A DNA stretch of 64,000 bases from a bacterium (GTDB lineage: Bacteria; Patescibacteriota; Gracilibacteria; Peribacterales; Peribacteraceae). The DNA is taken from contig JAKQEM010000032.1 in the NCBI GenBank assembly GCA_029558515.1, positions 3,987 through 67,986 on the forward strand. The letters are read 5' to 3'. Within the stretch, counting starts at the first letter, position 1. Each line of letters begins with the position of its first letter. Positions 5,195 through 28,372 of the stretch are shown here, piece after piece. The notes beneath the pieces are model-generated. The model made no database searches. It was not told the DNA's origin and was given only the letters and a program-made list of their open reading frames with translations. The position numbers and the translations under genes were made by a program.

Positions 5195-5196
5195 AG

Positions 5197-6858: not shown

Positions 6859-6885
6859 TGACATGTATCAAGGTGATAAGTGTCA
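6859..6885. promoter_or_regulatory. Imperfect palindrome (putative operator) between divergent mod and HTH genes
   Basis: TGACA-TG-TATCA-AGG-TGATA-AG-TGTCA; overlaps a TTGACA hexamer at 6858-6863. Confidence 0.45.
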
Positions 6886-6933
6886 GCTTCCGCCCCTTAA
6901 AGGTGACACGTAGCCTGAAAGATCACAAGACTT

Positions 6934-7149
6934 ATGGAACGTCTACCCAAACTCATGGCTATGAGCGATGTCCGAGAATGTCTCGGCGGCCTCTCCCGGC
7001 AGCGCGTTCACGAACTCATTCGCAAGAAGAACCTGCAATACGAGGAGACGTCAGCCGGTCGCATTTTTCTGGCAAGCGAAATACTCCAGCTCAAAAAGGA
7101 GATGGAGAAACATCCCCGCTCCAAGGCCCGTCAAACCAAAGGCAGATAA
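6934..7149 (+). CDS. Small helix-turn-helix protein (excisionase/RDF-like)
   Basis: 71 aa; LMAMSDVRECLGGLSRQRVHELIRK...GRIFLASEI resembles HTH_17/Xis; convergent with the recombinase. Confidence 0.65.
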   Translation: MERLPKLMAMSDVRECLGGLSRQRVHELIRKKNLQYEETSAGRIFLASEILQLKKEMEKHPRSKARQTKGR

Positions 7150-7160
7150 TCCACCCGCCC

Positions 7161-8552: not shown

Positions 8553-8655
8553 GGGAATGGGAGAAGGAAATATACGACACAAGGGATGCCGCAGCTTCCT
8601 CCTCATATCTAGGCGAAAGACCCTTTCGGCTGCCCTCCAAACCCTTTCAAATTGC

Positions 8656-10170: not shown

Positions 10171-10188
10171 GGGGTGGGAGGGAAGAAA

Positions 10189-11754: not shown

Positions 11755-12202
11755 GGGAAGAGGGGGAAGAAAGTGAAAGATCCTCATCGGTAATGGAGGC
11801 AAGTCGCAGGGCTTCGGTGATGGCGGCTTCCTGCTCGGGCGTGAGCGCGTCGTTCTCCTGTTTGATCCGTGCCGTCACCTCGAGCTTAGAGTTGTAGTTG
11901 GGGTTTCTGTGCTTAAGCCAGTACGTAATAGCGCCGAGGTTGCCGTCGCGGATGAAGGTCAGAAGCTGGCTCTCGGCCATGTCGTTCACGAGCGCGGTGC
12001 CATGCTCGAGCGCTTCGTCTGCGGCCTTGGCGAACTCGGGATCCTCCTGTCGCCAGCGGTAGTATGTGGGGCGGCTGACACTTGTCTTCTCGCACGCGGC
12101 GGAAACGATGGGAATTTTCTTGAGCTGCTCGAGGAGCAGCGCCTGCTCTTGGACTCTCCGCGCCTCCACCGTGGCCTTGTGCTTGTCGTGGCGGTTGTTC
12201 AT
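11699..12202 (-). CDS. Terminase small subunit-like HTH protein
   Basis: IVSAACEKTSVSRPTYYRWRQEDPEF...AITYWLK; directly upstream of and overlapping TerL. Confidence 0.7.
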   Translation of the reverse strand: MNNRHDKHKATVEARRVQEQALLLEQLKKIPIVSAACEKTSVSRPTYYRWRQEDPEFAKAADEALEHGTALVNDMAESQLLTFIRDGNLGAITYWLKHRNPNYNSKLEVTARIKQENDALTPEQEAAITEALRLASITDEDLSLSSPSSHAKGEPLPGAEAPAADAA

Positions 12203-12972
12203 CGTTTAACGGGGGGATGGATAATGGCCGGGGCGATGCCCGTCGCTTTCTCGAAGCGTTCGCAGATGACACAGCAGTAATCGGGGGAAAGCTCGATGCC
12301 GATGCAACGGCGTTTCGTTTCCTCGCAGGCGATCATGGTTGATCCTGACCCGAGGAAAGGGTCATAGACGAACTCGCCGATCCGCGTGCCGTTGAGGACG
12401 AGGCGTCGCAGGAGCCCCACGGGCTTGCAGGTTGGATGGAGCGGGCTGCGGGCGGGCTTTGGATGCACGAGGACGCTTCTGTCGGCGGAGCGGATGCGTT
12501 CATGTGCGCCGTGCCAGCCGAAAGCAATCAACTCATGCTGAGGATGGTGGTCGAGCCGTCCGGCGATCGGCTGGGTTTTGACCCACACAAGCAACTGCGA
12601 GAGCCGGAACCCGGCGTCGGTCATCCCGTCGCGCAGCGCGAACACCATCCGGTCGGCGTTGAAGCAGTAGAGGATATTCTTGGGGCTCAGGTGCGTCTTC
12701 ACCGCCTCCAACCACATTGCGGTGAACTGGCGGTACTCGCTGTCGCTCTGCAGATGATCGTTCTTGATATCCGCATGCCGTTTTTTGTGCCCAGCGAATT
12801 TCTCCTTCGATGCGACGTAATCAATTCCATACGGAGGATCCGTCAGGATTTGGCGCACCTTCGCCTTGCCGATGATCTTCTTCACGAACGCGGCATCGGT
12901 GCTGTCGCCGCAACCGAGAACGTGATCTCCGAGCCGCAGGATCGTGCCCGTGGTGATATGAAGTTTCTTCAT
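12199..12972 (-). CDS. DNA methyltransferase (N4/N6 family)
   Basis: LTDPPYG, HPTCKP, YDPFLGSGST. Confidence 0.88.
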   Translation of the reverse strand: MKKLHITTGTILRLGDHVLGCGDSTDAAFVKKIIGKAKVRQILTDPPYGIDYVASKEKFAGHKKRHADIKNDHLQSDSEYRQFTAMWLEAVKTHLSPKNILYCFNADRMVFALRDGMTDAGFRLSQLLVWVKTQPIAGRLDHHPQHELIAFGWHGAHERIRSADRSVLVHPKPARSPLHPTCKPVGLLRRLVLNGTRIGEFVYDPFLGSGSTMIACEETKRRCIGIELSPDYCCVICERFEKATGIAPAIIHPPVKR

Positions 12973-14255
12973 GGGTGTTTGAGGGAAGGGGCAATGCAGA
13001 GCGCCTTCGCGCGCTCGACGATGAGGTCGCAGAAAATTGGCTCGACTTCACACAGGAACGCCCGACGCTTCATCTGATGGCATGCCGCGAGCGTCGAACC
13101 GCTCCCGGCGGTGGTATCAAGAACGATATCCCCGGGCTTCGTGCAGCGCCGGAGCGGCTTCTCATGCAGGGAAGGGGGTTTCTGCGTTGGGTGCTGGTAC
13201 TCGCTCGAGTGCAGCCGCTGGCACGCCCAAATCTGAAAGAGGTCGAAGAGATCGTCTATCTGCCGCTTGCCCGATCCCACCTCTTTATCCAGAATTTCGG
13301 AGAGGTTCACGTTCGTTGGATGGAGGTAGGGCTTGCCCACGGTGCCGTAAACCGCGATCTCCATGCATTTGTTAAACGCGATCTGAGGCGTGAGGGAGAA
13401 GTTGCCTTTCACCCACGCGCACAGGCGGCGGTGCGTAATTCCTAGCTCCCTATAGAGTTCCTGCACGATCCATACCCAGTTCTCATCGCACCACAAAAAG
13501 CAGTGGGCATCGTCGTGCGCGGCTGCGAGCGCGTTGCTGAGGATCGCCTTCAGGAACGCCCGGTATTCCTCCTCACCCTTGGCATCATTGGTCTTGCCGC
13601 CGTAGCGCATGACGCCGCCGAGTCCTTTGTCGTAGGAAAGTCCGATGTTAAAAGGAGGGTCAATGTAGAACATTGATGCCTTGTGCTTCCCCATGAGCGT
13701 GCGGATGGCGGCGGGGTCGGTGGCGTCGCCACACAAAAGTCTATGGGGTCCGAGTTCCCAGAGATCCCCGGGCTTCGTCTTGGGTTTCTTGATCTTCTCC
13801 AGTTCCTTCTCGACGTCGAAATCGTCATCCTCCGTTTCGAGGAGACCGTCCCACGCCGCCGCCAGTTCGTCGGAGGTGAAGCCGGCGTCAAGGAGGAGAT
13901 CCGAACCGAACTCTTTGAGCGCTTCCCAGTCCCACTCTCCGGTCGAGCGATTGAGCCGGAGGTTCAATTCCTTCTCCCGTTCGATACTCGGAATGTGGAC
14001 GTACACCACGGGCACCGTCTTCATCCCGAGCCGCTTTGCCGCTTCGAGTCGCATGTGCCCGCCGATGACGACGTTCTTGCGGCTGGGAGCGCCATTCACG
14101 ATCACGGGATCGACGAACCCGAACCGTGAGAGACTCTCCATCAGTGTTGCAAGCTGCCCCTCGTTCCACTTGCGGGGATTGTAGGTGGCGGGACGCAGCG
14201 ATCCGATCTGCTCCTGTACGATGGTGAGTGCGGAAGAATGTTTGCGCGGAGGCAT
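12969..14255 (-). CDS. ParB-like N-terminal domain + DNA methyltransferase fusion
   Basis: YNPRK...FGFVDPVIV...GGHMRLEAAK (ParB/Srx); YIDPPFN, HPTQKP, DTTAGSGST. Confidence 0.88.
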   Translation of the reverse strand: MPPRKHSSALTIVQEQIGSLRPATYNPRKWNEGQLATLMESLSRFGFVDPVIVNGAPSRKNVVIGGHMRLEAAKRLGMKTVPVVYVHIPSIEREKELNLRLNRSTGEWDWEALKEFGSDLLLDAGFTSDELAAAWDGLLETEDDDFDVEKELEKIKKPKTKPGDLWELGPHRLLCGDATDPAAIRTLMGKHKASMFYIDPPFNIGLSYDKGLGGVMRYGGKTNDAKGEEEYRAFLKAILSNALAAAHDDAHCFLWCDENWVWIVQELYRELGITHRRLCAWVKGNFSLTPQIAFNKCMEIAVYGTVGKPYLHPTNVNLSEILDKEVGSGKRQIDDLFDLFQIWACQRLHSSEYQHPTQKPPSLHEKPLRRCTKPGDIVLDTTAGSGSTLAACHQMKRRAFLCEVEPIFCDLIVERAKALCIAPSLKHP

Positions 14256-15607: not shown

Positions 15608-18505
15608 ATGCCCACTCCACGATCGACTCCCGGCGATGACCCTATCAAGCAAGATCCTAAGGAGAATCCGGAATTTGAAGCGCCTGAAGAAGTCGTGGGA
15701 GGTCAGGGTATAGAAACGACGCGTGAGGATATTTCTTCCAGGGCAAAAGAAGCTGTGGAATTGCCAGCTGATCGCACAGTCCTTGATGTACCCATTGAAT
15801 TCTGCGCAGAGGGCAGACGAATCGAAACGCTGAATCGCGGCGGCGCGTATGTTGTGCGCGTGAATGCCGCTCGCTTCCGAAGCCGCGAGGAAGCCGAGCG
15901 GGCGGGTATCGTCCAAGCCGCTTACCTACGCTCATTGCGCGACCATTTACAGACAGAAACCGGCAAGGCATTCGAGGCGCTGCAATCTTTCGGCTCGGCT
16001 GCACACAGCGCGTTGCGCCTGAAAGGAGTAAAAACACTCTCGGAATGGGAAAAAGAGGAGGTATCGGCTCTCAGGCAGCCATCTCAGACGCCCCTCACGC
16101 TCGCGCAAGTATTTGACCGAAGCGTTGAGCGCTACATCCTGACGGGAGAGATGCCGCAGGATATTCCAAATGAAGTGCGCCGAGCGCTCGAAAAAATCCC
16201 CGGACGACAAGGCAAGAGCGCTCTTGATTTCATCGCGCAGGAAAGCCGCTCACTCCGGAGCAGCGCAAAACTCTACGAAGAACATATCGTTCCTCTCCGC
16301 GACAATCTGAAGGCGGAGGATGGCGAGAAACGTATGACCGAGCGCGATGACTACGTCCCGCCGAACTTCAAGGGTGAGCAGGAACCGCTCGATCCGGAGA
16401 GCGTGCGGTGGAGGGTCGAGCCGTTCGTCGGCGGTTATTATCGCCAGCAACTCTACCGGTACGATCCGGCTGCGCAGAGAATCGTTGCGGAGCCGACCGA
16501 GAAAACGGAGTTTACGCTCAACGATCCTCCCGAGGACATTGATGAATTGCCGCTCTATACGTTTCACGGTGTCTACGTCCCCGGCGAGGAGAATCGTATT
16601 CCGTTTCCAGAAAAGGGATTGCCTCTTCCGGATTCCCTGAATCCGAAGGAAGCATTCATACTTATGCGGAGTTCTGCGGGTGTTTTCTCTCTTGAAGAAA
16701 GGCAGCAGGGAACGGCGGCGGAACCGGTACAATATTCATTCAATTTTGTCCTCGCTCGGAGCAGCGATAACAGGATTGATGATGAACCGACTGACGCGGA
16801 TCTCCTCACTATCGATGGTCCGCTTGATGAAACCGCTGAAGAATTGATTGCAGGCCTGAAACAGAATGCCTTTCTGAATAAAGCGGATCGAGGGCGATCC
16901 CTCGTCTTTGCCACTCGCAAGCAATTTGTGTATCCGAAGGATGAGGAAATGTCATCGATGGATGAACGGTATCGGGCTGCCGGAATGAATTTGCATCATG
17001 AAATGGCGGATTTGAAGCTCGCCGACTGCCACTGGAGCAATATCCGCGCGTCCGATCTCGGGCGTAGGCTGGAGGTCCCCATGCGTACACCGAGCGGCTT
17101 TTTCGTGACCCGCCATCCCGATGTAGATTTTGCTCCTATTGGCGGTATTGGTCATGCATGGAGCGAGCGGTGGGACGAAACGTCACGGCAATGGATTCGC
17201 ATGGACGCTACCCCGCCGAAACAGGACGAGGATGAAGAGGAAGACGAGAATGACGAAGATCAGCCCGCTTCAGCTCCAGCGGCTGCGGGTGAAAGAGAGA
17301 CAAAGGTCGGCGTGAACGATGAAGAAAATGAGATAGAAGAAAGTGGTGTGCTCGAAATGAACGAACAGGAAATGGAGCGGCTCCTAGAACTCGTAACGCG
17401 CTCCGGCCCTTCGGCGGAGGAAGTAGCGGATGCGCTTTTCCGCGAGCGCACAAATGTTTCGGCGTCCGATTGGAAGAAGGTGGAAGGATTTGTCGAAACC
17501 GTGAACGCCGGCAAAGTACCGGAGGAGTCGCAGATTCCCGAAACACCGGACATGTTGCGGCATTTCCGCGACCGCATTACGGCTCCCAAGGGAACGCTCG
17601 AGCGAGAATGGCAAAAACTCTTCTGTCTTATCTGCACGCACCGCTTGGTCCACCGTCGCAAATTCCCCGGCAACGTCCGTCAGAGCGAAAGCACGACGGG
17701 ATTGGAAAACCCCGTCGATGCCTACATCGACATCATGGCCGACGAACCAGATCCGATGGGATTCGGGATCGATACGAGGAGGCCGGAGACCATCCTCGAC
17801 GTGAAGGCATTCGAGGAGGATTCCCTCGTCGATCTCACGTCGTCCATGAACGATACGGACGGCTACGGCAATGTGATGCGCGTCGAGCAGAAAAAAGTGG
17901 TGCTTTCGCTTCTCTATCATCTCATGGAACTGAACGCGGAATTGAACGATTCACGCGTCCGATCCCAACTGCGCACGCCACTCAAGATCCGATCCGAGGT
18001 CTACTCCATCCATGGCCAAGGCAAGAAGAACCAAGGCCAATTCGCGCGTCTCAAAGGGGCTGAAGAAGACATCACTGAAGCGGCGCTCGTGCATCTTGCG
18101 CGGGAACTCGATCAGACGACGCCCGGCGCGGGCGACTTCCTCAGCGCGTTACGCGCATACCGCGAAGGGTTGTCTCCGGAAACTCTGGAGCGTATTCGTT
18201 CGGGGGAACTGGTGAAAATGCTTACAATCTATTCCGATGGCAATCACTGGTGCAGCAACTGCGGCTCCGAATCCTGCAATGTGCAGATCCACGCGGAGCG
18301 TGTACGTGCCGCGCAGGAGGAAATTCGTGCCATCCGCGACCTCGGTATTATCGTGCAGGGAATCGGTTTCACGAAGAAAGCGGAGGCGATCAAGCTCATG
18401 TGCCAAGACCCGAAGGAACCCGGCGGTGCAGTTGTCGTCAATGACGTTTCCAGAGCCATTGCTGCCAGACACGCGATGCTGACAAAGCATTTGCAAAAAC
18501 TATAA
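15608..18505 (+). CDS. Transglutaminase-like (Cys-His-Asp) domain + C-terminal vWA domain protein
   Basis: LADCHWSN ... GHAWSE ... WIRMDATP triad; acidic linker; vWA MIDAS-like VDLTSSM, LTIYSDG, IIVQGIGF. Confidence 0.8.
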   Translation: MPTPRSTPGDDPIKQDPKENPEFEAPEEVVGGQGIETTREDISSRAKEAVELPADRTVLDVPIEFCAEGRRIETLNRGGAYVVRVNAARFRSREEAERAGIVQAAYLRSLRDHLQTETGKAFEALQSFGSAAHSALRLKGVKTLSEWEKEEVSALRQPSQTPLTLAQVFDRSVERYILTGEMPQDIPNEVRRALEKIPGRQGKSALDFIAQESRSLRSSAKLYEEHIVPLRDNLKAEDGEKRMTERDDYVPPNFKGEQEPLDPESVRWRVEPFVGGYYRQQLYRYDPAAQRIVAEPTEKTEFTLNDPPEDIDELPLYTFHGVYVPGEENRIPFPEKGLPLPDSLNPKEAFILMRSSAGVFSLEERQQGTAAEPVQYSFNFVLARSSDNRIDDEPTDADLLTIDGPLDETAEELIAGLKQNAFLNKADRGRSLVFATRKQFVYPKDEEMSSMDERYRAAGMNLHHEMADLKLADCHWSNIRASDLGRRLEVPMRTPSGFFVTRHPDVDFAPIGGIGHAWSERWDETSRQWIRMDATPPKQDEDEEEDENDEDQPASAPAAAGERETKVGVNDEENEIEESGVLEMNEQEMERLLELVTRSGPSAEEVADALFRERTNVSASDWKKVEGFVETVNAGKVPEESQIPETPDMLRHFRDRITAPKGTLEREWQKLFCLICTHRLVHRRKFPGNVRQSESTTGLENPVDAYIDIMADEPDPMGFGIDTRRPETILDVKAFEEDSLVDLTSSMNDTDGYGNVMRVEQKKVVLSLLYHLMELNAELNDSRVRSQLRTPLKIRSEVYSIHGQGKKNQGQFARLKGAEEDITEAALVHLARELDQTTPGAGDFLSALRAYREGLSPETLERIRSGELVKMLTIYSDGNHWCSNCGSESCNVQIHAERVRAAQEEIRAIRDLGIIVQGIGFTKKAEAIKLMCQDPKEPGGAVVVNDVSRAIAARHAMLTKHLQKL

Positions 18506-18534: not shown

Positions 18535-21339
18535 ATGCCTACCACGAAGCCAACCGGCCTCCCGCAAGATCCTCCCGAGAAGGGCGGTCGTGCGGAATCG
18601 AAGCAGGATGAACCCTCGCGCAACATCGGTCTTGTGCGCGAAGCAATGCGGCTTGGATTCGATTTGTCCTCCCTTCGCTTGGAGCAATTCGCTCCCGAGG
18701 AACCGGTTTCATCGAACGGGTCGCCGCTTGGCACGGAGGAGATCAGGCAGAGAGCGCTTGAAACGCTCCACCTTCTCGATGAATACAATCGCGTGAAATT
18801 GGAGCCGAGCAAGGCGTCCCAAGGGCAGGTCGATGACATGCTCGGTGATGTCGAAAGTCTGGATGATTTCATCGCCGCTCTCGACACCAGTAAAGAGAAA
18901 TCCAAGGCAAAAACAGAGGAACCCAAAGCAAGATTCCGAAGGGAAGAACTGGCCGGAAAAATCAGGGAACTTCTTTCCGAGCCGCAGGTGTATCAATTCC
19001 TGCAGCAATCACTTGCGAAGGAAGCCGAGCGCTTCAAAGCGGTACAGCCACTTCTTTCGCGGCTGCACAAGCTGCGCCAAGTACAGGACATCGCTTTCGA
19101 GCGCATCCATACGCTCTCCCTTGAGAGCAAACGCAGACATGGCAAGATCGTAGGATCCGTGCAGACAACTATCGAAAAACTCTCGCGCCTCAGCAAAGAG
19201 GCGGAGGAAGAGGAGCAACGCTTGGAGGAAGAAGCGACCCCCTTGGAAAAAGGATGGATCGCTTCGCAGCGCCTCCTCGAATATAAACAACAGATGAAGA
19301 CGGATCGCTTCGTCATGGCACCGAGCCGCCGCGCGATTCTCGATGAGATGATCGCCAAGCTCGGCAGCAAAGGACGGGTGCTTCTGCTCGGTTCCAACGG
19401 AACGGGAAAGACGGAGCTTGCGGCGAAGGCGTTGAAGCTCGTTTCCAACGGGTATCACCTCGTGCCATGGCAGGAGGCCACGACCGGACAGGACATCTTC
19501 GGGCGGCAAGAAATCCGCCGCCAGAACGGCCATGTAGAGAGCGGGCTGCGCCCTGGCCCCATGACCCGCGCCATCGAAGCAAAAGAAGGAGAACCGGCAG
19601 GCGTGCTCCATGATGAGTTAAACCTCGGGAGCCTCCGCACGATTTACCTCCTGAAGAAGCTCTGGAACAGCCGTCCCGGGCAGGAGGTGGATGTGCCCGT
19701 ACTCGATGAAAAGCGCAAATTGCCCCTGAACTATGCGGAGGTCTATACGGCAAACCCGAAGGATGAGCGCACGAGCAACCGCGAAGAGTTCGATGCGGGC
19801 ATCACGCGCGTTCTCGGCGGCATGAACGTGCCGTTTCTGAAACAGGATGAGCAGGAGCAGATCATTCTCGCCAAGCTCATCGACGAGAACGGTGTCCTGC
19901 ATCTTTCGAGGAGCGAAGCGCAGACGATCCGCGAGCTTGTAGCCAGCGCTGTCATGACGCAGCAATGCTTCGACCGTGCGTTCGCGGATTTGGGCGATGA
20001 AGCCCTCGGAGAAATCAAGAACATGACGGGCATTTCCGATTTGCGCCTCACAAAGAAATTTCTCGACCCGGGACGGCTCATGGAAATGTTCGATACCTAC
20101 GAGCAAAAGAGAGCTGAAGGCATGAGCGTCGCGGAATATCTTTCAGCAGAATTGAAGAAATTCCTCGCAGAGTTTGAGGTGGACGAAGAGAGAAACATCG
20201 CGCTCGCCATTCTGAAATTAAAGGGTGTTCTTACACCGGACAGCACGGCGACGGATCCCCATGTGCAAGTGATGACGAAGCCCGGCGAGAAGCCGTTCCT
20301 CCTCCCGTCCGAACTCGCATTCATCGTGTCTTGCGATGATGGGTTGGACGACTCCGACGTGGAATTCGATCAAAAGGAAGTGAGCGTTGAGGAAGTGATT
20401 GCCTCAGACGGGGCGGAGGTGCTGGATCTTCTCAATGCGCGAAATCCCACCGTCATTCAGGCTACCAAAATCAAGCGCATGCTGGAGATGCAGGGAACGT
20501 CGCAACAGGCCATTGACCGCGCCCGCCGGACGATGCTCGAAAAGTGCGGCGAGGGGCACTTCTTCGGCCCAGAAGAGCTGATGAAGGCATTCCCCGGACT
20601 CAAGCTCGCCCCGAAAGATCTGCCGCCCCTCCCTCCAGACGACGAGATCGAGCGCCATGCTGCCTTGGGACACACGCTCCGTCTACGCGTGAGCACCGCG
20701 CCAGACGGATCGAAGCTCACGATCCCGAAGATGCGCGAACTGCTGCAGGAAAGCTTCGCTCGTAACAACGACGGAGAGGTGCTCTATAGCCCCAATTCCG
20801 ACTGGAAGCTCGCCTCGACGTTCTACACGGACGAAGTGCCGGAGATGGCATGGGCGTTCACGTCCGATGAAGTCCTACCAGACTCCACAAGTAAGAACCA
20901 TCTGCAGCAGACTCAAGTACTTGCCGACTATGCTCGTTCCACGCTCTTCAAGAAAGGTCAGCTGCCGCGCGAGTACCAGGAGGCCATACGGGAGTTTGAA
21001 TCTCAGAAAGATGAGATCCAGCAATTGATGGGCAGCGACTGGAAGGCGGCAGCAGGACGTCTCGCGGGACTCAAGATCAACAAGCTTATGCGAGGCAACC
21101 CCGCAGAGACTGTGCAGGATCTCCTTGTTACTTTCCAAAACAATGATCCCAAGAGCCGAAAGCGCCTGCTTGAAAAAATGTGGACATGGACGGCAACCCA
21201 AAGCTCGGACGGCTGCCTCGTCTACGTCGGTAACTTCGGTCCGGGCGGCGTGAGCGTCGGCTTCTGGCGCCCGGACGACTCGGATGACGGTCTCGGGGTC
21301 GTCCTCGCTCGGAAGTTCCCTCGAACCTTGCGTACTTGA
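18535..21339 (+). CDS. DGR target 1: MoxR/AAA_5-type ATPase fused to a C-terminal variable (C-type-lectin-fold-like) domain
   Basis: Coiled coil; Walker A GSNGTGKT, Walker B VLHDELN, YTANP; the 3' end contains VR1. Confidence 0.88.
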   Translation: MPTTKPTGLPQDPPEKGGRAESKQDEPSRNIGLVREAMRLGFDLSSLRLEQFAPEEPVSSNGSPLGTEEIRQRALETLHLLDEYNRVKLEPSKASQGQVDDMLGDVESLDDFIAALDTSKEKSKAKTEEPKARFRREELAGKIRELLSEPQVYQFLQQSLAKEAERFKAVQPLLSRLHKLRQVQDIAFERIHTLSLESKRRHGKIVGSVQTTIEKLSRLSKEAEEEEQRLEEEATPLEKGWIASQRLLEYKQQMKTDRFVMAPSRRAILDEMIAKLGSKGRVLLLGSNGTGKTELAAKALKLVSNGYHLVPWQEATTGQDIFGRQEIRRQNGHVESGLRPGPMTRAIEAKEGEPAGVLHDELNLGSLRTIYLLKKLWNSRPGQEVDVPVLDEKRKLPLNYAEVYTANPKDERTSNREEFDAGITRVLGGMNVPFLKQDEQEQIILAKLIDENGVLHLSRSEAQTIRELVASAVMTQQCFDRAFADLGDEALGEIKNMTGISDLRLTKKFLDPGRLMEMFDTYEQKRAEGMSVAEYLSAELKKFLAEFEVDEERNIALAILKLKGVLTPDSTATDPHVQVMTKPGEKPFLLPSELAFIVSCDDGLDDSDVEFDQKEVSVEEVIASDGAEVLDLLNARNPTVIQATKIKRMLEMQGTSQQAIDRARRTMLEKCGEGHFFGPEELMKAFPGLKLAPKDLPPLPPDDEIERHAALGHTLRLRVSTAPDGSKLTIPKMRELLQESFARNNDGEVLYSPNSDWKLASTFYTDEVPEMAWAFTSDEVLPDSTSKNHLQQTQVLADYARSTLFKKGQLPREYQEAIREFESQKDEIQQLMGSDWKAAAGRLAGLKINKLMRGNPAETVQDLLVTFQNNDPKSRKRLLEKMWTWTATQSSDGCLVYVGNFGPGGVSVGFWRPDDSDDGLGVVLARKFPRTLRT
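21202..21318 (+). repeat. DGR variable repeat VR1
   Basis: 117 nt ungapped match to the TR; 17 mismatches at TR adenines, 10 at non-A positions. Confidence 0.92.
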
Positions 21340-21420
21340 ATGCTTGATCTTCCTCGAATCCTTTTTCCTTGACGCATCCGCTACTGACGAATTTTCACCT
21401 CCTATAGTCCTTCACTCCCG

Positions 21421-22443
21421 ATGCCCCGCGAAGCTCTCCACTCGTTCATCCGGCAACTCCAAGAAAGTACCGCCTACAGGGATCACGTCGGCGTGCGCAC
21501 CGTCGTGGATGAGACCGTCCGCAGGATTGCCGCTTTGCCGGAAGAAGGTGCCGGAGCATTGCTCAGAGAAGAAATTCATACGCTTCGAGATCAGCTCATT
21601 CCGCTCTTGCAGGGAACGAAGGCTCCGAAGAGGAAGGAGAAAAAAGGAGAAGCAGTCAGTCCCAAGGACGCGGAAGCGATCATGGGCAAAGACCGTTTCT
21701 TTGGCATCGAGGCTGTCCGCAAAGCCTTTCCTGGTATCACGCTCAAACCCGAGCACATTCCCTCTATTCCATTTTCCAAAGAAGATCTTGAGCGAGCGAA
21801 GGAACTCGGAGACAGCCTACGTCTGCGCATAGATAAGGCGCCCGGCAAAGGGAAACTCAACATGCAGAAAATGCAGGAATTGCTGCAGCCGGTCTTCGAT
21901 CAGAGCGGCGAAGGGAAGGTGCTCTACGATACCGATTGGTACGAGAACGAGGACTTCTTCACCGAAGCGCCGGAACTCTGCTGGGTCCTTACGTCTGACG
22001 GCGTCATTCCCGATTCCGAGGACAAAGATTACCTCGAACAGACGGAGCATATCGCGGAGTACCTCCGTGACACCGTGTACCAAGGCAAGAAGCTGCCGCA
22101 GCAGTACGCCGAGGCGATCAAGGAACTGGACGCACAAAAGGATGATATTCGCCAACTTATTGATGACGATAATTGGGAGAAGGCGGCAAAGAGACTTGCT
22201 GATCTCACACTCAATAAACTTACGCGCCGCATCCCCGTCGAAGTGCTGTACGACATGCTTGTGTCATTCCAGAACGGCGGCAAGCGCCATCTGGACGACA
22301 TGTACGATTGGACGTGCGTCCGTAGCTCGGACGGCGGCCTCGTCGACGTCGGTGCCTTCGTTCCGGGCGGCGTGCACGTCGACCACTGGCGCCCGCGCAG
22401 CTCGAATGACGCTCTCGGGGTCGTCCTCGCTCGGAAGTTCTGA
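21421..22443 (+). CDS. DGR target 2: stand-alone paralogue of the target 1 C-terminal domain
   Basis: 340 aa; shares FFG.E...AFPG..L, LG..LRLR..., GxVLY, VxPDS..K..L.QT with target 1; ends in VR2. Confidence 0.88.
   Translation: MPREALHSFIRQLQESTAYRDHVGVRTVVDETVRRIAALPEEGAGALLREEIHTLRDQLIPLLQGTKAPKRKEKKGEAVSPKDAEAIMGKDRFFGIEAVRKAFPGITLKPEHIPSIPFSKEDLERAKELGDSLRLRIDKAPGKGKLNMQKMQELLQPVFDQSGEGKVLYDTDWYENEDFFTEAPELCWVLTSDGVIPDSEDKDYLEQTEHIAEYLRDTVYQGKKLPQQYAEAIKELDAQKDDIRQLIDDDNWEKAAKRLADLTLNKLTRRIPVEVLYDMLVSFQNGGKRHLDDMYDWTCVRSSDGGLVDVGAFVPGGVHVDHWRPRSSNDALGVVLARKF
22324..22440 (+). repeat. DGR variable repeat VR2
   Basis: 117 nt ungapped match to the TR; 17 mismatches at TR adenines, 11 at non-A positions. 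Confidence 0.92.
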
Positions 22444-22842
22444 GCCTTGCGACCTTGAAGGCTTGAGCCTGATCGAGTCCTTTTTCCTTGAAGCATCCGT
22501 TACAGGCGATTTTTGCACTGGATGCCACTGCAATTTGCATCATAGGATGCGATTGCGGCCCGTTCTTGCAGTCGGGGTTACGGCTCCGGCTCACGGTCCG
22601 CCTCATCTTTGCAGCCACTGAAGCGGTCAGCGTAGGTGGGAACCCGCCGGAATACCGTGTCTCCACGGAGCACAGTAGTGAGCGGGCTTAGATGCAGAAG
22701 GAACTTCTTGCTCATTCTCAGACTCGGTATCGTCCCGTTCTGCGGGACGGTTGCGGGCGAATCAAATTCAGGGGAAAGAGGCTATAGGCCGCAAGGCAGT
22801 AAACCTCGATCCCCGGTGTTCCGGACGGGAATGGGCAGCAAT

Positions 22843-22959
22843 AGCTCGGATGGCAACCTCGTCAACGTCGGCAACTTCGATCGTGACGGCGTGAACGTCA
22901 ACAACGATCAACCTGACAACTCGAATGGCAACCTCGGGGTCGTCCTCGCTCGGAACTTC
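22843..22959 (+). ncRNA. DGR template repeat (TR)
   Basis: Intergenic, AAC-rich copy of the VRs (agc tcg gat ggc aac ctc gtc aac ... cgg aac ttc) located between the targets and avd/RT. Confidence 0.9.
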
Positions 22960-22966
22960 CTTCATG

Positions 22967-23007
22967 GTAACCCAAGGGGCTCCCGTCTCAAGAGTCCCTT
23001 AGGTTAC
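22967..23007. other. Long hairpin 3' of the TR, overlapping the avd stop codon
   Basis: GTAACC-c-AAGGGG-CTC ... GAG-TCCCTT-a-GGTTAC. Confidence 0.6.
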
Positions 23008-23354
23008 GCATCGCGCGTCGACTTGATCCACCCGCCGAGCATGCGTCCGACTTCGTCAACCATCTCCTCGATTTGCGCATACTTCTTGAGATCGATTGCC
23101 TTCACATCCTTGGCGAGGCGCAGAAAAACGCGAAGGACGTTGAGCTTGAGGCTGACGCGTTCGAGCGGCTCCAACTTCTGCGGCTTGCGCATCTGGCTCG
23201 CGAGCAGAATCCCCTCGAGCACTTCGAGCATGAGAGCTTCGCAGCGGGGCCAGAGCGCGATGCGATCCTGCTTGGATACGGCAGCCCGCAGCTCATAGAG
23301 CTTCTTTGTCAGATCGTATGCCCGCTTGAAGATTGGAATATCGAGTTCTTCCAT
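23004..23354 (-). CDS. avd: DGR accessory variability determinant (Avd, four-helix bundle)
   Basis: 116 aa; IPIFKRAYDL...LRVFLRLA...EVGRMLGGWIK; located between TR and RT. Confidence 0.88.
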   Translation of the reverse strand: MEELDIPIFKRAYDLTKKLYELRAAVSKQDRIALWPRCEALMLEVLEGILLASQMRKPQKLEPLERVSLKLNVLRVFLRLAKDVKAIDLKKYAQIEEMVDEVGRMLGGWIKSTRDA

Positions 23355-23367: not shown

Positions 23368-24417
23368 ATGAAAGTGCACAAGCATATCTTCGACCGGCTC
23401 ATCACGCCAGAGCACCTGTTCCGTTCTTGGGAGGAATTCCGGAAGGGTAAGGGGTCGCGGAAAGACGTGCAGGAGTTCGAGTGGAAACTCGAGCAGAATA
23501 TTCTGTCTCTCAGCCGTGATTTACGAGACAGGACATACAGGCATGGTCCGTACTCGGCGTTCACCATATGCGATCCCAAGCAGCGTCGCATCCATAAGGC
23601 AACCGTTCATGACCGCGTTCTGCACCACGCCATATTCTCTCTGCTTAATCCCATCTTCGAGCCGACGTTTATAGCGCATTCTTTTTCTTGTCGTGCGGGA
23701 AAGGGAACGCATAAAGCCGTGACAGCACTCGAGAAGTGGTTGCGGCAAGTCAGTCGCAACTGTCGGTATCCCTGCTTCGCTTTGAAGTGTGACATTCACC
23801 AGTTTTTTGCTTCCGTCGATCACAAGATCCTTCTCTCTATCCTGAACCGGAAGGTGAAGGACGCGGATATCATGCGCTTGCTCACGGAAGTCGTGGGGAG
23901 TTTTAGCAGTACAGAATTGGAAAACGAGAGGCCAAGAGGAATCCCCATCGGCAATCTTACGTCGCAGCTCTTTGCGAATGTATATCTGAATGAGTTTGAT
24001 CAGTTCATGAAGCATTCGCTGCGCATCCGCCATTATATCCGTTACACCGATGACTTCGTGATCGTGGATACTGACAGAGACCGGCTCGAGGCGTTGATCC
24101 CGATCATAGGCAAATATCTCAGCGAAGAACTACGGCTGAACCTCCATCCTCGCAAAATCATCCTTCGTAAATTCGGTCAGGGCATCGATTTCCTCGGTTA
24201 TGTCATTCTCCCACACCATCGGGCATTGCGTACACGGACGAAACGGCGCATGTTCCGTAAGCTGAAGTCGCGGGTGGACAGTTTCAAGACGGGTGCGGGC
24301 AGTGAATCTTCGGTGGAATGTTCCCTTCAGTCCTATCTCGGAGTTCTCTCACATGCGAATGCTCTCTGCTTGAGCGATCAACTGCAGAATCAATGCTGGT
24401 TCTGGCTGCGGGACTGA
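23368..24417 (+). CDS. DGR reverse transcriptase
   Basis: PKQRRI...DRVLHHA, KCDIHQFFASVDH, GIPIGNLTSQ (DGR-type SQ), YIRYTDDF, GIDFLGY. Confidence 0.95.
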   Translation: MKVHKHIFDRLITPEHLFRSWEEFRKGKGSRKDVQEFEWKLEQNILSLSRDLRDRTYRHGPYSAFTICDPKQRRIHKATVHDRVLHHAIFSLLNPIFEPTFIAHSFSCRAGKGTHKAVTALEKWLRQVSRNCRYPCFALKCDIHQFFASVDHKILLSILNRKVKDADIMRLLTEVVGSFSSTELENERPRGIPIGNLTSQLFANVYLNEFDQFMKHSLRIRHYIRYTDDFVIVDTDRDRLEALIPIIGKYLSEELRLNLHPRKIILRKFGQGIDFLGYVILPHHRALRTRTKRRMFRKLKSRVDSFKTGAGSESSVECSLQSYLGVLSHANALCLSDQLQNQCWFWLRD

Positions 24418-24431: not shown

Positions 24432-25133
24432 ATGAATCTGGAACAGGCAATACAAACGCTGCAATCCGTCCTCCGGAAGGAGCAGCCTTCCCGCTTCAGC
24501 AGCTCATGGGTCTACGCCCATGCGCCCCGCGTCTACTTCTACATCTGGCGCAACGTTCGCACGGAGCTGGGTGATGTTGACTGGGATCTGGTAACGAGCA
24601 AATTGGAGAAGCCATTCCAGAGGCTCTGGCATCCCCGGCGCAGGTGCAGAAAATCACCCTATCGGGACACCCATGAAATGCGAACCGCTCTCGGTGAGCA
24701 TTGGGAAAAGCGTTATGTCTTCCTCCATGCCCCGACGGAAGTCGAATGGAGAGAGCGCGATTGGATTGCCGCTATCCTCGCCCGGTTATCGCAGAAGGGA
24801 AACCTATGTGCGCAGGAGGAACTCCTCGAACTCCTGCATTTCATGGTCGATCACTGGATGGAACGCCGTCCGGAGTTGAGGAAGTGGAGGGTTCATCCGA
24901 GCGATCTTGATCACACCTTGAAGCAGTGCGTTCGTTGCTACCGGTACACCGGCTCGTTCGCCATCTATCTCCTCATCACGCTCATGAAAGCCGGAAGAGG
25001 CTTGCCGTACATTCGATGGTCATCACTGGATGCCACGATCCTCGATAGCGATCTGCGTCGGATCGATAGTGTCGTGCAGGATCCGGAGACGGGAGAGTTG
25101 TGCATGGCGGAACTGCACGCCTATCACGTCTGA
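24432..25133 (+). CDS. Hypothetical protein directly after the RT; C-terminal half sigma-region-2-like
   Basis: 233 aa starting 14 nt after the RT stop; LSQKGNLCAQEELL...CVRCYRYTGSFAIYL. Confidence 0.65.
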   Translation: MNLEQAIQTLQSVLRKEQPSRFSSSWVYAHAPRVYFYIWRNVRTELGDVDWDLVTSKLEKPFQRLWHPRRRCRKSPYRDTHEMRTALGEHWEKRYVFLHAPTEVEWRERDWIAAILARLSQKGNLCAQEELLELLHFMVDHWMERRPELRKWRVHPSDLDHTLKQCVRCYRYTGSFAIYLLITLMKAGRGLPYIRWSSLDATILDSDLRRIDSVVQDPETGELCMAELHAYHV

Positions 25134-25190: not shown

Positions 25191-25421
25191 ATGGCATATC
25201 GGCGATATCGCAGGCGCAGGCAGTACACGTTCAAGCAAGAGCTGGGCAGCCGGTTGTACTATCTGATTCTTCTGCTCCTTGTGATAGGGTCCTACAAAAT
25301 CTGGGGGCTGCAAGTGTTCGATGAAATCTGGATTCTGATTCTTGGTGCAGTGAGTTACAAACTCGTCGGATTCATCCTTCGATCCACGGGTATCTGGCGT
25401 CCCGTTCGTCCTCGGTGGTGA
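25191..25421 (+). CDS. Small membrane protein
   Basis: 76 aa; Arg-rich N-terminus followed by two hydrophobic helices. Confidence 0.5.
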   Translation: MAYRRYRRRRQYTFKQELGSRLYYLILLLLVIGSYKIWGLQVFDEIWILILGAVSYKLVGFILRSTGIWRPVRPRW

Positions 25422-25576
25422 ATGCATTGAAAATGGCTTATATAAGCCAAAATATTCATTTTGTCTAGTTCCGAGACACACCCCCAAAGTACTGTCTCAA
25501 ATGTCTCAAATGACCCACCGACCCGCTTGCCTAGACCCCTCTAAAACGACCCCCTCGAAAACCCCTTCAAAACTCC

Positions 25577-27100
25577 TCACGGATCAGGAATAAGAGTTGT
25601 CAGACCCCGTCGTTCTGCCACATCATTTTGCACAGGTTCAAGGTTCTTAATCGCTTCATACACAAGCGAAAGTTTAGGGGTTCGCTTATTTTCTAAAACA
25701 TCAAAGGGAATTCCATCGGGTAATGCTAGTCGTTGTAAGCGGTTTTGGTCTTCCACATCAGCTTTTTCCCAGAGTTCGCTTGCATGTTTCATGTAGTGCC
25801 TACAATAAGCCAGAACCTTCTCCGCTTTGTATTCCGTCCATTCATGATCATTGCGAGTTGTAGTGGCCTCGTTAATTTGTTCGGTTTTACGATTAAACAC
25901 TTCCTCCCAACTTGAATATAAGGCGGGGTTATTCCTACTCAATTTCATCATTTCCATTGCTTCAAGGCGTTCCTCTTTTAAGGTCGTAAGTTCATTAGCC
26001 GCTTCAATACTAATTCTACTTAGTTCAGAAAATTCATTTTCCCATGCATCAATCGCAATTGCTTCAAATAAAGCCAATAAGCCCTCTTCGGGGCATATTT
26101 CTTTGAGGAAGCCTTTAAACAACGTGTGCATGTCGTCGGCCTTCATTCGGAATTTGCAGCCAATGATTCCGCAGTCGTAATAGTGGTGTTTCTATTTTTT
26201 CATTTTGCCCGTAGAGCCATAGCCTCTTAATGGCACATTATGGGTTGGGCAGATTACAAATCTGCGAAGCGGTACGGCAGGATTTAGCTTTCTTCGGCGG
26301 CGAACCAAGCGATCTTCCTTGCCTTTGTTTAATGTTCTTTGAAGCGTATGCCATTCATCGGCAGTAAGAGGGCTTTCCCATTTAGCAGCGATCAGCCTAC
26401 CCCCTGTCCATTTTTCACGATTGAGGCCGCCGTATACGGGGCTACGGAGTAGTTTAAGCCATGATTGCGGCGATACGGTATTCCGTATGCGTATTTTTTT
26501 CTTTCTATCATGCGGGTCATGTTTTACGCTTTCCCTCATTAAAAATCCTTTTTCTGCCAATTCTTTTGCTACATCGGTTGGCGTGTAGATACCCGATAAC
26601 TGCTTACGTAGGCCATAGCAAAGTAATGACCATTGTTTTTCATCAGGGTCGGGCGCAAGTGTGGGTTTGTATATAGGCTTGCCGTCAGGCGCATAACCTA
26701 CCTGCTTTTTGATGTTAATAAATCCTGTTGGCGCAGGTCTGCACCAATACCCTTCGGCAGTCAGGCTTATTTCTGCACCAATGGTATTAATGGTGCGAAT
26801 GCGATTATCGTAACGCGCACGGGAGGCCAATATGCCCTCCATAAACTCTCCGCTTGGGCTGTCATCAATCATTTCTCTTGCCGATTCCAAACGTATGCCA
26901 CTCCGCTTCAACATTTCTTTGAACTCGTAATACTCCCTCATGCCGCCACGCGAAAATCTATCAATTCTATTAATGATCACTACCTGAACGTTCTATTTAT
27001 TTTTAACGCAGAATTCTAAGGCTTCTTTAAATTCCACTCTTGCTTTGATGGGCGGGGGATATGGTTATCCCTCGGCAAGTTGGGTCGCTCAAAGAGTACC
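25577..27100 (-). pseudogene. Large serine recombinase pseudogene
   Basis: Single frame ...EFCVKNK*NVQVVIINRIDRFSRG ... GKMKK*KHHYYDC...; internal TAG stops and a decayed N-terminus. Confidence 0.8.
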
Positions 27101-27130
27101 ACTTTTGCTAATTTCCAGCCAATCACACAA

Positions 27131-28372
27131 TTACTCCATAGCTTCTATTACTTCCCCTGTTCCCGTTTTAATGATGCTACTGCCACTGGCAGATTTGATC
27201 ACAGCACTACCGCTACCGATTTTCGTTGTCATAAATTCCACCTCATTTTTATTAATTTGTAGTGCTTTTGATTGGTCTGCGTTTACTGCTGCAATGTAAA
27301 AAAACTGCGAAGATTCCCCAAGCAAATACAATTTACTGCCAGTACCTATTTCCATAAGGGCAGGATGACTCGTTAATAGTTGAACTTCTCTCGGTTGCCC
27401 GCCTCCAATCATATAAGGGATGCGAGGGAAGATAGTTTGACCAAATAAAATTACAGAAACGAATATTGGAACCATTACTGTCTGAATAACGTAGGCTGCA
27501 AAATCGGGCTTAATGGTTTTTATTGGTTTGTGCAGCTCATCTTGGATAATAGAAACTAAAATATGTGTTCCTGCAACAGAGCTGAAAAACCAAGCAAAGA
27601 ATGTTCCTTGGCTTAGTTTTGTTTCATGGAACGAATCAAAATCAAAAATATCTATTCTGATTTTATTATAAGCATAGGTAAACAAAGCCGCGATAAATGC
27701 ATATAGGATTGCCTCGGTACATCTACGGATAAATAAGTGAATCGGCTTTTGGACGGATGTTTTTTCTTCTTTTGGTTTCTCCTCACTTGCAGCAACTTTT
27801 GGCTTCTCACTTTTTGGCGTTGACCGTTTTGAAAGGAATTTAAGGATTGTTGCCAATAGATAGAAAAAGCAAACGATCAATATTATCCATATTGATAGGC
27901 TTGCTGTCATTTTTAGCACAAAGCCCATTCCTCCTAACTCATCCAAAAATTTAAGATAAGGGGAAGATAGGTCGTATTTCCCTAAGCCGTCATATCGTAG
28001 TTTATCGGTAGAATATTTATTGGTTAATGCGGCAGCATTAAAAAGCTGGACGAATACGCTACTAATGAAATGTGACCAAAAAATAACTGTAATGCCAATT
28101 TTCACTCTTTCCCAACCACCATTGCTACTAAATGGAATATAGGTTTCCTTATTCCCAACATGCCAAGCCATCCATAAAATTATGGATAAAGGTATAAGAC
28201 ATAAAATTCCTGCAATTAAATATCTGGCATTTATGATGTCAAAACTGACAATCCCAAATCTTGCTAAAAAGGCATTAACAGTAAGAAATCCTAAAACATA
28301 CAATAGCGCTGCAAAGATGATTCCTAGCTGCGAAATATCCTTTAACCTTTCTAGGGTTAATTTCTTATCCAT
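27131..28372 (-). CDS. Multi-pass membrane hypothetical protein (low GC)
   Basis: 413 aa with many hydrophobic segments. Confidence 0.7.
   Translation of the reverse strand: MDKKLTLERLKDISQLGIIFAALLYVLGFLTVNAFLARFGIVSFDIINARYLIAGILCLIPLSIILWMAWHVGNKETYIPFSSNGGWERVKIGITVIFWSHFISSVFVQLFNAAALTNKYSTDKLRYDGLGKYDLSSPYLKFLDELGGMGFVLKMTASLSIWIILIVCFFYLLATILKFLSKRSTPKSEKPKVAASEEKPKEEKTSVQKPIHLFIRRCTEAILYAFIAALFTYAYNKIRIDIFDFDSFHETKLSQGTFFAWFFSSVAGTHILVSIIQDELHKPIKTIKPDFAAYVIQTVMVPIFVSVILFGQTIFPRIPYMIGGGQPREVQLLTSHPALMEIGTGSKLYLLGESSQFFYIAAVNADQSKALQINKNEVEFMTTKIGSGSAVIKSASGSSIIKTGTGEVIEAME

What the first reader, a model, noticed from the sequence alone, without database searches (positions are those of the whole stretch)
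21202..22959. The adjacent TR does not look like the template that made these VRs
Seen over 117 nt: VR1 and VR2 differ from each other at 16 sites, 15 of which fall on TR adenines, so both were made by A-mutagenesis. Both VRs also share 10 identical differences from the local TR at non-A bases: GAT/GAC, GGC/GGT, CGT/CCG, GAT/TGG, CCT/CCG, GGC/GAC, AAC/NNT and AAC/AAG (the last may simply be IMH vs IMH*). Known: retrohoming copies non-A bases faithfully and should erase such differences. Inference: either the TR/avd/RT module was recently swapped in from a related DGR, or a second TR acts in trans while this TR serves remote targets. Predicted cognate core: GACGGCAACCTCGTCAACGTCGGTAACTTCGATCCG...AACAACTGG...CCGAACAACTCGAATGACAATCTCGGGGTC.
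Basis: partly seen in the sequence, partly recalled or inferred. Interest (0 to 1): 0.75.

Follow-up and report, generated by a model that had tools for sequence, protein, structure and literature searches.

The report
DGR template mismatched to its variable repeats
An intact mutagenic retroelement in a Peribacteria-like (candidate phyla radiation) bacterium carries a template repeat of one version while both of its variable repeats were last written from another version, and both versions recur among close relatives.

Summary
Over 117 nt, VR1 (21202-21318) and VR2 (22324-22440) differ at 16 sites, 15 on TR adenines. Both share 10 identical differences from the TR (22843-22959) at non-adenine bases. 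The locus is a complete CPR-type DGR: two paralogous targets, TR, inverted avd, RT. The resident TR is not decayed. VRs of four orthologues, including the closest two (P0001 98%, P0004 93% identical outside the VR), fit it at 37 of 37 codons under adenine-only change, whereas the window's own VRs clash at 3-4 codons. The window's VR scaffold (Pro/Trp/Asp in place of Arg/Asp/Gly) recurs in more distant relatives. On a tree of the non-VR part the two scaffolds swap at least 4 times among 14 proteins, and one origin is rejected. RT divergence follows the target body, not the scaffold. So the short TR turns over, not the whole module. I favour TR exchange between related strains with the VRs not yet rewritten. 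A second TR acting in trans, or a strain-chimeric assembly, remain open. No second TR lies in the window, and the genome itself could not be searched.

The parts
18535..21339 (+). Target gene 1 (934 aa): AAA_5 NTPase region plus a C-terminal ~290-aa domain paralogous to target 2; VR1 at its 3' end
   Evidence: ORF list. Pfam AAA_5, E 2.9e-9, residues 282-383. 47% identity to target 2 over residues 640-928. Orthologue representative P0199: 82%, 935 aa.
21202..21318 (+). VR1, 117 nt aligned to the TR, Pro/Trp/Asp scaffold
   Evidence: 27 mismatches to the TR, 17 at A and 10 at non-A.
21292..21318 (+). IMH of VR1: 23 nt identical to the TR, then G where the TR has C
21421..22443 (+). Target gene 2 (340 aa, no Pfam family); VR2 at its 3' end
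   Evidence: 78 homologues, those named being Candidatus Peribacteria / Peregrinibacteria and other CPR.
22324..22440 (+). VR2, 117 nt aligned to the TR, Pro/Trp/Asp scaffold
   Evidence: 28 mismatches to the TR, 17 at A and 11 at non-A.
22414..22440 (+). IMH of VR2
22441..22514 (+). Conserved 3' flank shared with VR1's flank (21319-21395); includes a terminator-like stem-loop plus T run at 22460-22489
   Evidence: VR1 and VR2 regions 82% identical over 194 nt including these flanks. Alignment. Terminator-like site. The folds are not better than shuffles.
22843..22959 (+). Template repeat, non-coding, Arg/Asp/Gly scaffold, 28 A, ten Asn codons in the VR frame ahead of the IMH* block
   Evidence: Fits the VRs of P0001, P0004, P0012 and P0015 at 37 of 37 codons.
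22933..22959 (+). IMH* of the TR: same 23 nt, then C in place of G
22964..23010 (+). Stem-loop directly 3' of the TR, at the 3' end of the convergent avd gene
   Evidence: Fold of 22933-23040: -19.1 kcal/mol, z = -1.83, 8 of 200 shuffles as good. Function not tested.
23004..23354 (-). avd accessory gene (116 aa), on the opposite strand
   Evidence: Pfam bAvd, E 2.1e-16, profile positions 4-106 of 107.
23368..24417 (+). DGR reverse transcriptase (349 aa), full length
   Evidence: Pfam RVT_1, E 1.2e-18. Same length as most homologues, best 85% identical. IGNLTSQ and YTDD are read directly from the sequence.

Best explanation
This is a complete, apparently functional CPR-type diversity-generating retroelement, laid out target1-VR1, target2-VR2, TR, inverted avd, RT. 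It is caught in a discordant state. Both VRs were last rewritten by adenine-mutagenic retrohoming from a TR of one scaffold haplotype (Pro14/Trp22/Asp29, with Asn-type codons at positions 23 and 25). The resident TR is a different but equally functional haplotype (Arg14/Asp22/Gln23/Asp25/Gly29). The two haplotypes circulate among closely related Peribacteria-like strains. The ~120-nt TR segment is exchanged between them by homologous recombination, faster than the target body or the RT diverges. The resident DGR has not rewritten either VR since the exchange. Shown: the mismatch, the intactness of the parts, the fit of the resident TR to relatives' VRs, and the repeated switching on the tree. 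Inferred: recombination as the mechanism, and the order of events.
For: The two VRs are identical at 88 of 89 non-A sites although their genes are old paralogues (47% protein identity), so one template wrote both. 10 of 11 non-A changes fall on the TR lineage. The resident TR is not decayed. P0001, P0004, P0012 and P0015 have 0 of 37 VR codons incompatible with it; P0011 and P0016 have 1, in the IMH block. The window's VR1 and VR2 have 3 and 4. The window's scaffold is real: P0003, P0005 and P0006 have 0 of 37 incompatible with it and 3-4 with the resident TR. Arg14 always goes with Asp or Gly at codon 22, and Pro14 with Trp or Cys. That holds in 14 of 14 close relatives; it takes five nucleotide differences. 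The ML tree of the non-VR part needs 4 scaffold changes among 14 rows, and starred branches force 3-4. This is no more clustered than shuffled labels (76 and 82 of 500 shuffles as low). The AU test rejects one clade of the 6 Pro-type rows, p = 3.4e-7. RT identity follows target-body identity, not scaffold. RTs P0081 (Pro-type contig) and P0085 (Arg-type contig) are 90% identical, as are their targets, while P0081 and P0082 (both Pro-type) are 88%. RT and avd are full length. The DGR lies in an island with recombinases and defence genes. Precedent: two TR types of 81% identity within Treponema denticola (PMC4891356, passages).
Against: No DNA of any relative could be read, so every relative's TR type is inferred from its VR protein sequence, and no recombination tract has been seen. 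In the window's own small clade the two nearest relatives are Arg-type, like the resident TR. On parsimony the window's VRs, not its TR, are the odd ones, which needs an extra event or a trans template. An intact DGR with a perfectly matching 23-nt IMH has left both VRs untouched up to the last marker, one base before the IMH. GC content shows no step between VR2 and the TR. Contigs were linked to RTs only by equal contig lengths, plus one pair of NCBI locus tags. No RT above 85% identity was found, although the target has 93-98% relatives, which I cannot explain. The same picture would arise from assembly mixing of two co-occurring strains.
Confidence: 0.4

Rival explanations
1. Strain-chimeric assembly. 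Two co-occurring strains about 98% alike carry Pro-type TR and VRs, and Arg-type TR and VRs, respectively. The assembler took the Pro-type path at both VR bubbles and the Arg-type path at the TR bubble 400 nt further on.
For: The window appears to come from an uncultured CPR lineage: every homologue that a source names is from a MAG or a metagenome. A 98%-identical relative with an Arg-type VR exists (P0001). VRs and divergent TRs form exactly the kind of bubbles that assemblers resolve independently (established knowledge, not tested here).
Against: Both VRs, 1.1 kb apart, are of one type and only the TR is of the other. The switching of scaffolds across independent assemblies shows that the underlying exchange is biological, even if this contig is mixed. 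No reads could be examined.
Confidence: 0.25
2. A second, Pro-type TR elsewhere in the genome is used in trans by the same RT/Avd. Each VR then shows whichever template wrote it last.
For: [quoted passage not shown] Two templates per genome would explain at least 4 switches among 14 relatives without repeated transfers. It would also explain why the window's VRs differ from a TR that looks ancestral for its clade.
Against: No second TR-like sequence lies in the 64-kb window on either strand (blastn, word 7, E up to 10). Two VRs in one genome both show the same type. I found no report of a two-TR DGR in CPR in the searches. The rest of the genome was not available: the IMH scan of genome contigs gave 14 hits, all chance, none a DGR repeat.
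Confidence: 0.2
3. The whole TR/avd/RT module was recently swapped in from a related DGR.
For: The DGR lies in an island with serine recombinases. The best RT homologue is only 85% identical, although the target has 93-98% relatives. P0004's contig runs about 11 kb downstream of the target, yet no close RT from it appears.
Against: RT-to-RT and target-to-target identities to three linked relatives agree (77-78% versus 75-78%). Scaffold type is not tracked by RT similarity. There is no composition step at the VR2/TR boundary. The missing close RTs may be due only to short contigs.
Confidence: 0.08
4. The DGR is dead and the TR drifted, or the non-A differences are errors of a low-fidelity RT. 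These are the usual readings of non-A-to-N differences.
For: Wu et al. report non-A-to-N differences in 86 of 372 DGRs, up to 11 in one target and frequent in CPR, and suggest lower fidelity (PMC5758913, passages). A crAss-like phage TR-VR pair with 10 such differences was read as decay (PMC12386605, passage).
Against: All 10 differences are identical in two independently diversified VRs, so they are not random errors. The TR's non-A bases are a conserved haplotype that fits four relatives' VRs at 37 of 37 codons, so they are not drift. The TR keeps 28 A and its Asn codons. RT and avd are intact. 10 of 11 changes on one lineage gives P = 1.3e-4.
Confidence: 0.04

Closest known systems
CPR DGRs of architecture TG-TR-(AVD)-RT (type B3 in Wu et al. 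2018, Supplementary Table S1; e.g. Candidatus Peregrinibacteria bacterium GW2011_GWF2_33_10 and a Woesebacteria DGR)
   Same: Target gene(s) with a C-terminal VR, a non-coding TR just downstream, avd on the opposite strand, then the RT. CPR host. Short VR of about 110-117 nt (supplement rows seen; window).
   Different: The window has two tandem paralogous targets. Its TR differs from both VRs at 10-11 non-adenine sites. The listed Peregrinibacteria row appears to show 1 such difference, though I did not see the column headers.
Treponema denticola DGR with strain-specific TR variants (Nimkulrat et al. 2016, PMC4891356)
   Same: Two main TR types (81% identical) coexist within one species-level group, and each defines a different diversification spectrum (passages).
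   Different: There the TR type mostly follows the strain phylogeny and is explained by gains and losses of the DGR. Here the scaffold type is scattered on the target tree, and one genome holds a TR of one type with VRs of the other.
Thiohalocapsa sp. PB-PSB1 DGR loci diversified in trans (Dore et al. 2024, PMC10907252)
   Same: [quoted passage not shown]
   Different: Those loci lack their own intact TR or RT. Here an intact TR, avd and RT sit 400 nt from the mismatched VR, and no alternative TR has been found.
DGRs with many non-A-to-N TR-VR differences (Wu et al. 2018; 7 clusters below 75% adenine bias in Roux et al. 2021, PMC8144416; zeta crAss-like phage TR3-VR3, PMC12386605)
   Same: 61-63% adenine bias and 10-11 non-A differences place this pair in that rare class (passages).
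   Different: Those cases were read as RT infidelity or decay. Here the differences are shared by two VRs, and each state is a haplotype found in relatives, which excludes both readings.
Bordetella phage BPP-1 DGR (prototype)
   Same: Adenine-specific differences between copies, a GC-rich IMH at the 3' end of the VR and an IMH* on the TR, Avd plus RT (window; prototype features recalled and as described in PMC3240598, abstract, and PMC5758913, passages).
   Different: avd is inverted and lies between the TR and the RT. IMH and IMH* differ at only one base within the aligned 27 nt. The target is a cellular NTPase-type protein, not a phage tail fibre.

Membership tests
Diversity-generating retroelement (DGR) | Reverse transcriptase of the DGR type next to the repeats | tested here: met
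   Pfam RVT_1, E 1.2e-18. 349 aa, like its homologues, among them A3D88_04415, which lies two locus tags from a target homologue, A3D88_04405. IGNLTSQ and YTDD are present in the sequence. That IGxxxSQ marks DGR RTs is recalled, not tested here.
Diversity-generating retroelement (DGR) | A non-coding TR and a VR at the 3' end of a protein-coding gene, as imperfect repeats | tested here: met
   TR 22843-22959 lies between genes. VR1 and VR2 are the last 39 codons of ORFs 18535-21339 and 21421-22443.
Diversity-generating retroelement (DGR) | Variation confined to positions of TR adenines | tested here: met
   15 of 16 VR1-VR2 differences are on TR adenines, p = 1.7e-10.
Diversity-generating retroelement (DGR) | TR and VR identical at non-adenine positions (the resident TR is the template of these VRs) | tested here: not met
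   10 (VR1) and 11 (VR2) non-A mismatches, adenine bias 63% and 61%. This is below the 75% used by Roux et al. (PMC8144416, passages). The failure concerns the pairing of this TR with these VRs, not the nature of the element.
Diversity-generating retroelement (DGR) | IMH at the 3' end of the VR and IMH* at the 3' end of the TR | tested here: met
   A 23-nt identical GC-rich block in all three copies, followed by G (both VRs) versus C (TR).
Diversity-generating retroelement (DGR) | Accessory variability determinant (Avd) | tested here: met
   Pfam bAvd, E 2.1e-16, nearly full profile.
Diversity-generating retroelement (DGR) | Ongoing mutagenic retrohoming (VR heterogeneity in the population, cDNA) | not testable with these tools
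C-type lectin fold VR (CLec) target proteins | The VR lies in a C-type-lectin / FGE-sulfatase-like fold | tested here: inconclusive
   No Pfam family on target 2 or on the C-terminal domain of target 1. A profile search of PDB sequences gave only E 0.44-0.45 chance-level hits. Wu et al. class the VR of a Peregrinibacteria DGR with the same architecture as CLec1.
DGR served by a remote or second TR in trans | A second TR that matches the VRs at all non-adenine sites | tested here: inconclusive
   None in the 64-kb window. The genome contigs IMH scan gave 14 chance hits and neither the source genome nor a relative. Nothing in phages or plasmids. The rest of the genome was not searched.

The most novel reading that the evidence does not exclude
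These Peribacteria-like DGRs run on two alternative master templates that share one IMH. The templates are either two TRs per genome or a TR cassette that is swapped at high rate within the population. One and the same VR is therefore periodically re-scaffolded: fixed Pro/Trp versus fixed Arg with a diversified Asp, and different sets of diversified codons. This would add a second, coarser level of programmed variation on top of adenine mutagenesis. It would also explain part of the 'non-A-to-N' differences that surveys of CPR DGRs have put down to a sloppy RT.
Probability: 0.2. Interest if true: 0.7.

Novelty: new member of a known kind. Interest (0 to 1): 0.45.

Why it matters
The TR is usually treated as the invariant master copy of a DGR, and non-adenine TR-VR differences are usually put down to RT errors or decay. 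Here both readings can be excluded from sequence alone, because two VRs share every difference and each state is a haplotype used by relatives. If the contig is not chimeric, the template itself turns over faster than the genes around it. That turnover changes which residues of the ligand-binding surface are fixed and which are diversified. There is also a practical point. Pipelines that demand at least 75% adenine bias would miss or mis-pair this DGR. And 'cognate TR' assignments in metagenome assemblies of strain mixtures need read-level checks.

Tried and rejected
1. Second TR in the window: blastn of the TR, VR1 and VR2 against the window (word 7, E up to 10) found only the three known copies.

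2. Source genome or relatives in genome contigs: a 20-nt IMH scan gave 14 loci, each with one match. None had further similarity to the TR, the VRs or the 11-kb DGR region. None had an Asn-codon-rich or VR-like context; 9 of them are one conserved Variovorax/betaproteobacterial gene.

3. TR translations of relatives: the spurious ORF 22636-23298 that spans the TR in the VR frame was searched in the protein collection. It gave 475 word candidates, none at E <= 1e-3.

I dropped it. A wider tally of 102 VRs in register showed Trp22 also with Ser, Ala or Val at codon 14. The Arg/Asp and Pro/Trp linkage is therefore a haplotype feature, not a structural necessity.

6. PDB by sequence profile: only chance-level hits.

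7. Rfam over the whole window: 0 matches.

8. Phage and plasmid collections with 22300-23000, distant mode: no match.

9. Hairpins 3' of the VRs: folds no better than shuffles, z = +0.34 and -0.58.

10. Composition step at a possible swap boundary: none between VR2 and the TR.

11. Paralogy of the upstream ORF 15608-18505 with target 1: none.

12. One literature search was badly framed and returned only nuclear-receptor papers.

Rows dropped: P0008 and P0009 (VR shortened or truncated) from the codon test. P0002, P0008 and P0009 from the trees.

Full report
WHAT IS THERE

The region is a complete diversity-generating retroelement. Its parts, all but avd on the + strand, are:
- Target 1, 18535-21339, 934 aa, with a Pfam AAA_5 NTPase region.
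- Target 2, 21421-22443, 340 aa, no Pfam family.
- A non-coding template repeat (TR), 22843-22959.
- avd on the minus strand, 23004-23354 (Pfam bAvd, E 2.1e-16).
- A 349-aa reverse transcriptase, 23368-24417 (Pfam RVT_1, E 1.2e-18).

Target 2 is a paralogue of the last ~290 residues of target 1, at 47% identity. The 23-nt block CTCGGGGTCGTCCTCGCTCGGAA closes all three repeats and occurs nowhere else in the window. It is followed by G in both VRs and by C in the TR, the usual IMH/IMH* arrangement.

The homologues of target 2 and of the RT that carry a source name are from Candidatus Peribacteria, Peregrinibacteria and other CPR bacteria. The order target-TR-(avd)-RT is an architecture that Wu et al. 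list for CPR DGRs, including a Peregrinibacteria one (PMC5758913, supplementary table rows).

The DGR sits in the left, island-like part of the window, among an ApeA/HEPN protein, a ResIII helicase, two DNA methylases and serine recombinases. Housekeeping genes start near 32 kb.

THE OBSERVATION

It holds exactly. Over 117 aligned nucleotides the TR has 28 adenines.
- VR1 and VR2 differ at 16 sites, 15 of them on TR adenines (Fisher p = 1.7e-10).
- At the 89 non-adenine sites the two VRs agree at 88.
- At 10 of those sites both carry the same base, different from the TR.

Only 61-63% of TR-VR mismatches face adenines. That is below the 75% that nearly all DGRs reach in the survey of Roux et al. 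(PMC8144416, passages). The DNA upstream of the two VRs is unalignable (34% ungapped identity), so their perfect agreement at non-adenine sites means one template rewrote both. That template was not the resident TR as it stands.

WHY IT IS NEITHER DECAY NOR A SLOPPY RT

These are the readings given in the literature for such differences:
- Wu et al.: 86 of 372 DGRs have a non-A-to-N difference, at most 11 in one target, frequent in CPR, 'suggesting less fidelity'.
- A crAss-like phage pair with 10 such differences was read as past function followed by random change (PMC12386605).

Here random RT errors cannot give the same base at 10 of 10 sites in two independently diversified VRs.

Drift of a dead TR is excluded by the relatives. 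I asked, codon by codon over the 37 codons ahead of the Lys/Asn-Phe end, whether each relative's VR can be reached from the resident TR by changing adenines only.
- P0001 (98% identical to target 2 outside the VR), P0004 (93%), P0012 and P0015: 0 incompatible codons.
- P0011 and P0016: 1, in the IMH block.
- The window's own VR1 and VR2: 3 and 4 (codon 14 Arg/Pro, 22 Asp/Trp, 25, 29 Gly/Asp).

The mirror test used the window's VR scaffold. P0003, P0005 and P0006 have 0 incompatible codons with it, but 3-4 with the resident TR. The representative orthologue of target 1 (P0199, 82%) also has an Arg-type VR.

So the resident TR is a conserved, working haplotype. It is the one that serves the orthologous VRs in the nearest relatives. 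The window's VRs carry a second working haplotype. RT and avd are full length, and the TR keeps its in-frame Asn codons.

THE TWO SCAFFOLDS SWITCH REPEATEDLY

Arg14 goes with Asp or Gly at codon 22, and Pro14 with Trp (once Cys). This holds in 14 of 14 close relatives and involves five nucleotide differences.

I built an ML tree of the non-VR part: 20 rows, with P0002, P0008 and P0009 left out.
- The Pro/Arg label needs 4 changes among the 14 labelled rows, and well-supported branches force 3-4.
- The labels are no more clustered than shuffled ones (76 and 82 of 500 shuffles as low).
- The AU test rejects a single clade of the six Pro-type rows (p = 3.4e-7). The labels come from the VR, which was excluded from the tree, but I named the group after seeing the tree.
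- The window's protein sits with two Arg-type proteins in a 100/99-supported trio.

Other sites vary too: Asp at codon 29 in Arg-type P0010, Asn at codon 25 in P0014, Ser/Ala in the IMH block. There is thus a small network of TR haplotypes rather than just two. In the wider family, a fixed Trp22 and a diversified Asp/Gly22 both occur with several residues at codon 14 (102 VRs in register).

WHAT MOVES: THE TR OR THE MODULE

Four relatives' targets and RTs could be linked: by equal contig lengths, and for one by adjacent NCBI locus tags A3D88_04405 and A3D88_04415.
- The window's RT is 77-78% identical to three of them, where its target body is 75-78% identical. For the fourth the figures are 70% and 61%.
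- P0081 (contig with a Pro-type VR) and P0085 (contig with an Arg-type VR) are 90% identical, exactly like their targets.
- The two Pro-type contigs' RTs are 88% identical.

The RT therefore follows the target body, and the scaffold type follows neither. This speaks for turnover of the short TR alone, not of the TR/avd/RT module. It rests on few linked genomes.

One thing stays unexplained. The best RT homologue is only 85% identical, although the target has 93-98% relatives. P0004's contig should also extend ~11 kb downstream of the target.

HOW IT MOST LIKELY CAME ABOUT

Three scenarios remain.

(a) TR exchange by homologous recombination between co-circulating strains, with the resident DGR not having rewritten either VR since. 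I favour this (0.4). It needs no unseen element and fits the scattered scaffold types and the RT/target congruence. Within-species TR types are also known in Treponema denticola (PMC4891356). Against it: the nearest relatives are Arg-type like the resident TR. The window's VRs then look like the derived state, which costs an extra event.

(b) A strain-chimeric assembly (0.25).

(c) A second, Pro-type TR used in trans (0.2), as reported for Thiohalocapsa (PMC10907252). The window holds none. The rest of the genome could not be searched. The IMH scan of genome contigs gave only 14 chance hits. Phage and plasmid collections gave nothing.

A whole-module swap (0.08) and decay or RT infidelity (0.04) are unlikely, for the reasons above.

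In every scenario the mechanism that made the VRs is ordinary DGR retrohoming. TR RNA is reverse-transcribed with random bases opposite adenines, and the cDNA replaces the VR up to the IMH. This step is inferred from the family, not shown here.

NOVELTY AND SCORE

The element is a new member of a known kind, a CPR DGR of a listed architecture. Several things are already in print:
- Multiple non-A differences in CPR DGRs.
- TR variants within a species.
- Trans-acting TRs.

In my searches I did not find a case where shared non-A differences are traced to a second functional TR haplotype that alternates with the resident one among close relatives. Those searches cover only the open-access library, and I read passages, not whole papers.

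Interest is 0.45: a neat, testable point about how DGR templates evolve and about mis-pairing in surveys, tempered by the open possibility of an assembly artefact.

Noticed in passing
window 947-14255: Defence/mobile island upstream of the DGR. It holds an ApeA N-terminal domain plus Apea-like HEPN protein (947-2266), a ResIII/DEAD helicase (2906-5275), a large serine recombinase (7161-8702), and two N6_N4 DNA methylases, one with a ParB_N domain (12199-14255).
   Followed up: partly
window 25400-28000 and 26192-26980: GC falls from ~0.55 to 0.36-0.46 just downstream of the DGR. A 262-aa ORF there matches only the C-terminal half of the Resolvase N-terminal domain profile (positions 68-133 of 145). 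This may be a truncated recombinase at an island border.
   Followed up: no
window 15608-18505: A 965-aa ORF with no Pfam family ends 30 nt before target 1 on the same strand. It is not a paralogue of target 1. It may be an operon partner of the NTPase target.
   Followed up: partly
window 24435-25133: A 232-aa ORF directly downstream of the RT on the same strand, with only a weak sub-threshold ZapD match (E 0.0022). Whether it is a DGR accessory gene is unknown.
   Followed up: no
window 22636-23298: A 220-aa ORF runs through the TR in the VR reading frame and on through the antisense of avd. It has no homologue in the protein collection and is probably spurious, but a gene caller could prefer it to avd.
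   Followed up: yes
window 45267-47729: The UvrC homologue (820 aa) carries a GNAT acetyltransferase domain (residues ~560-640) between its RNase H-like parts. This is an unusual insertion or fusion.
   Followed up: no
relatives P0008 and P0009: P0008 has a Pro-type VR lacking 10 codons between the Asp-Gly after Pro14 and the Ser at codon 27. It is an in-frame VR length variant of the kind Wu et al. link to slippage on AAC repeats. P0009 ends inside its VR, probably at a contig end.
   Followed up: no
window 22964-23010: A strong stem-loop lies immediately 3' of the TR, where the convergent avd gene ends (z = -1.83). It could be a bidirectional terminator or part of the DGR RNA.
   Followed up: partly
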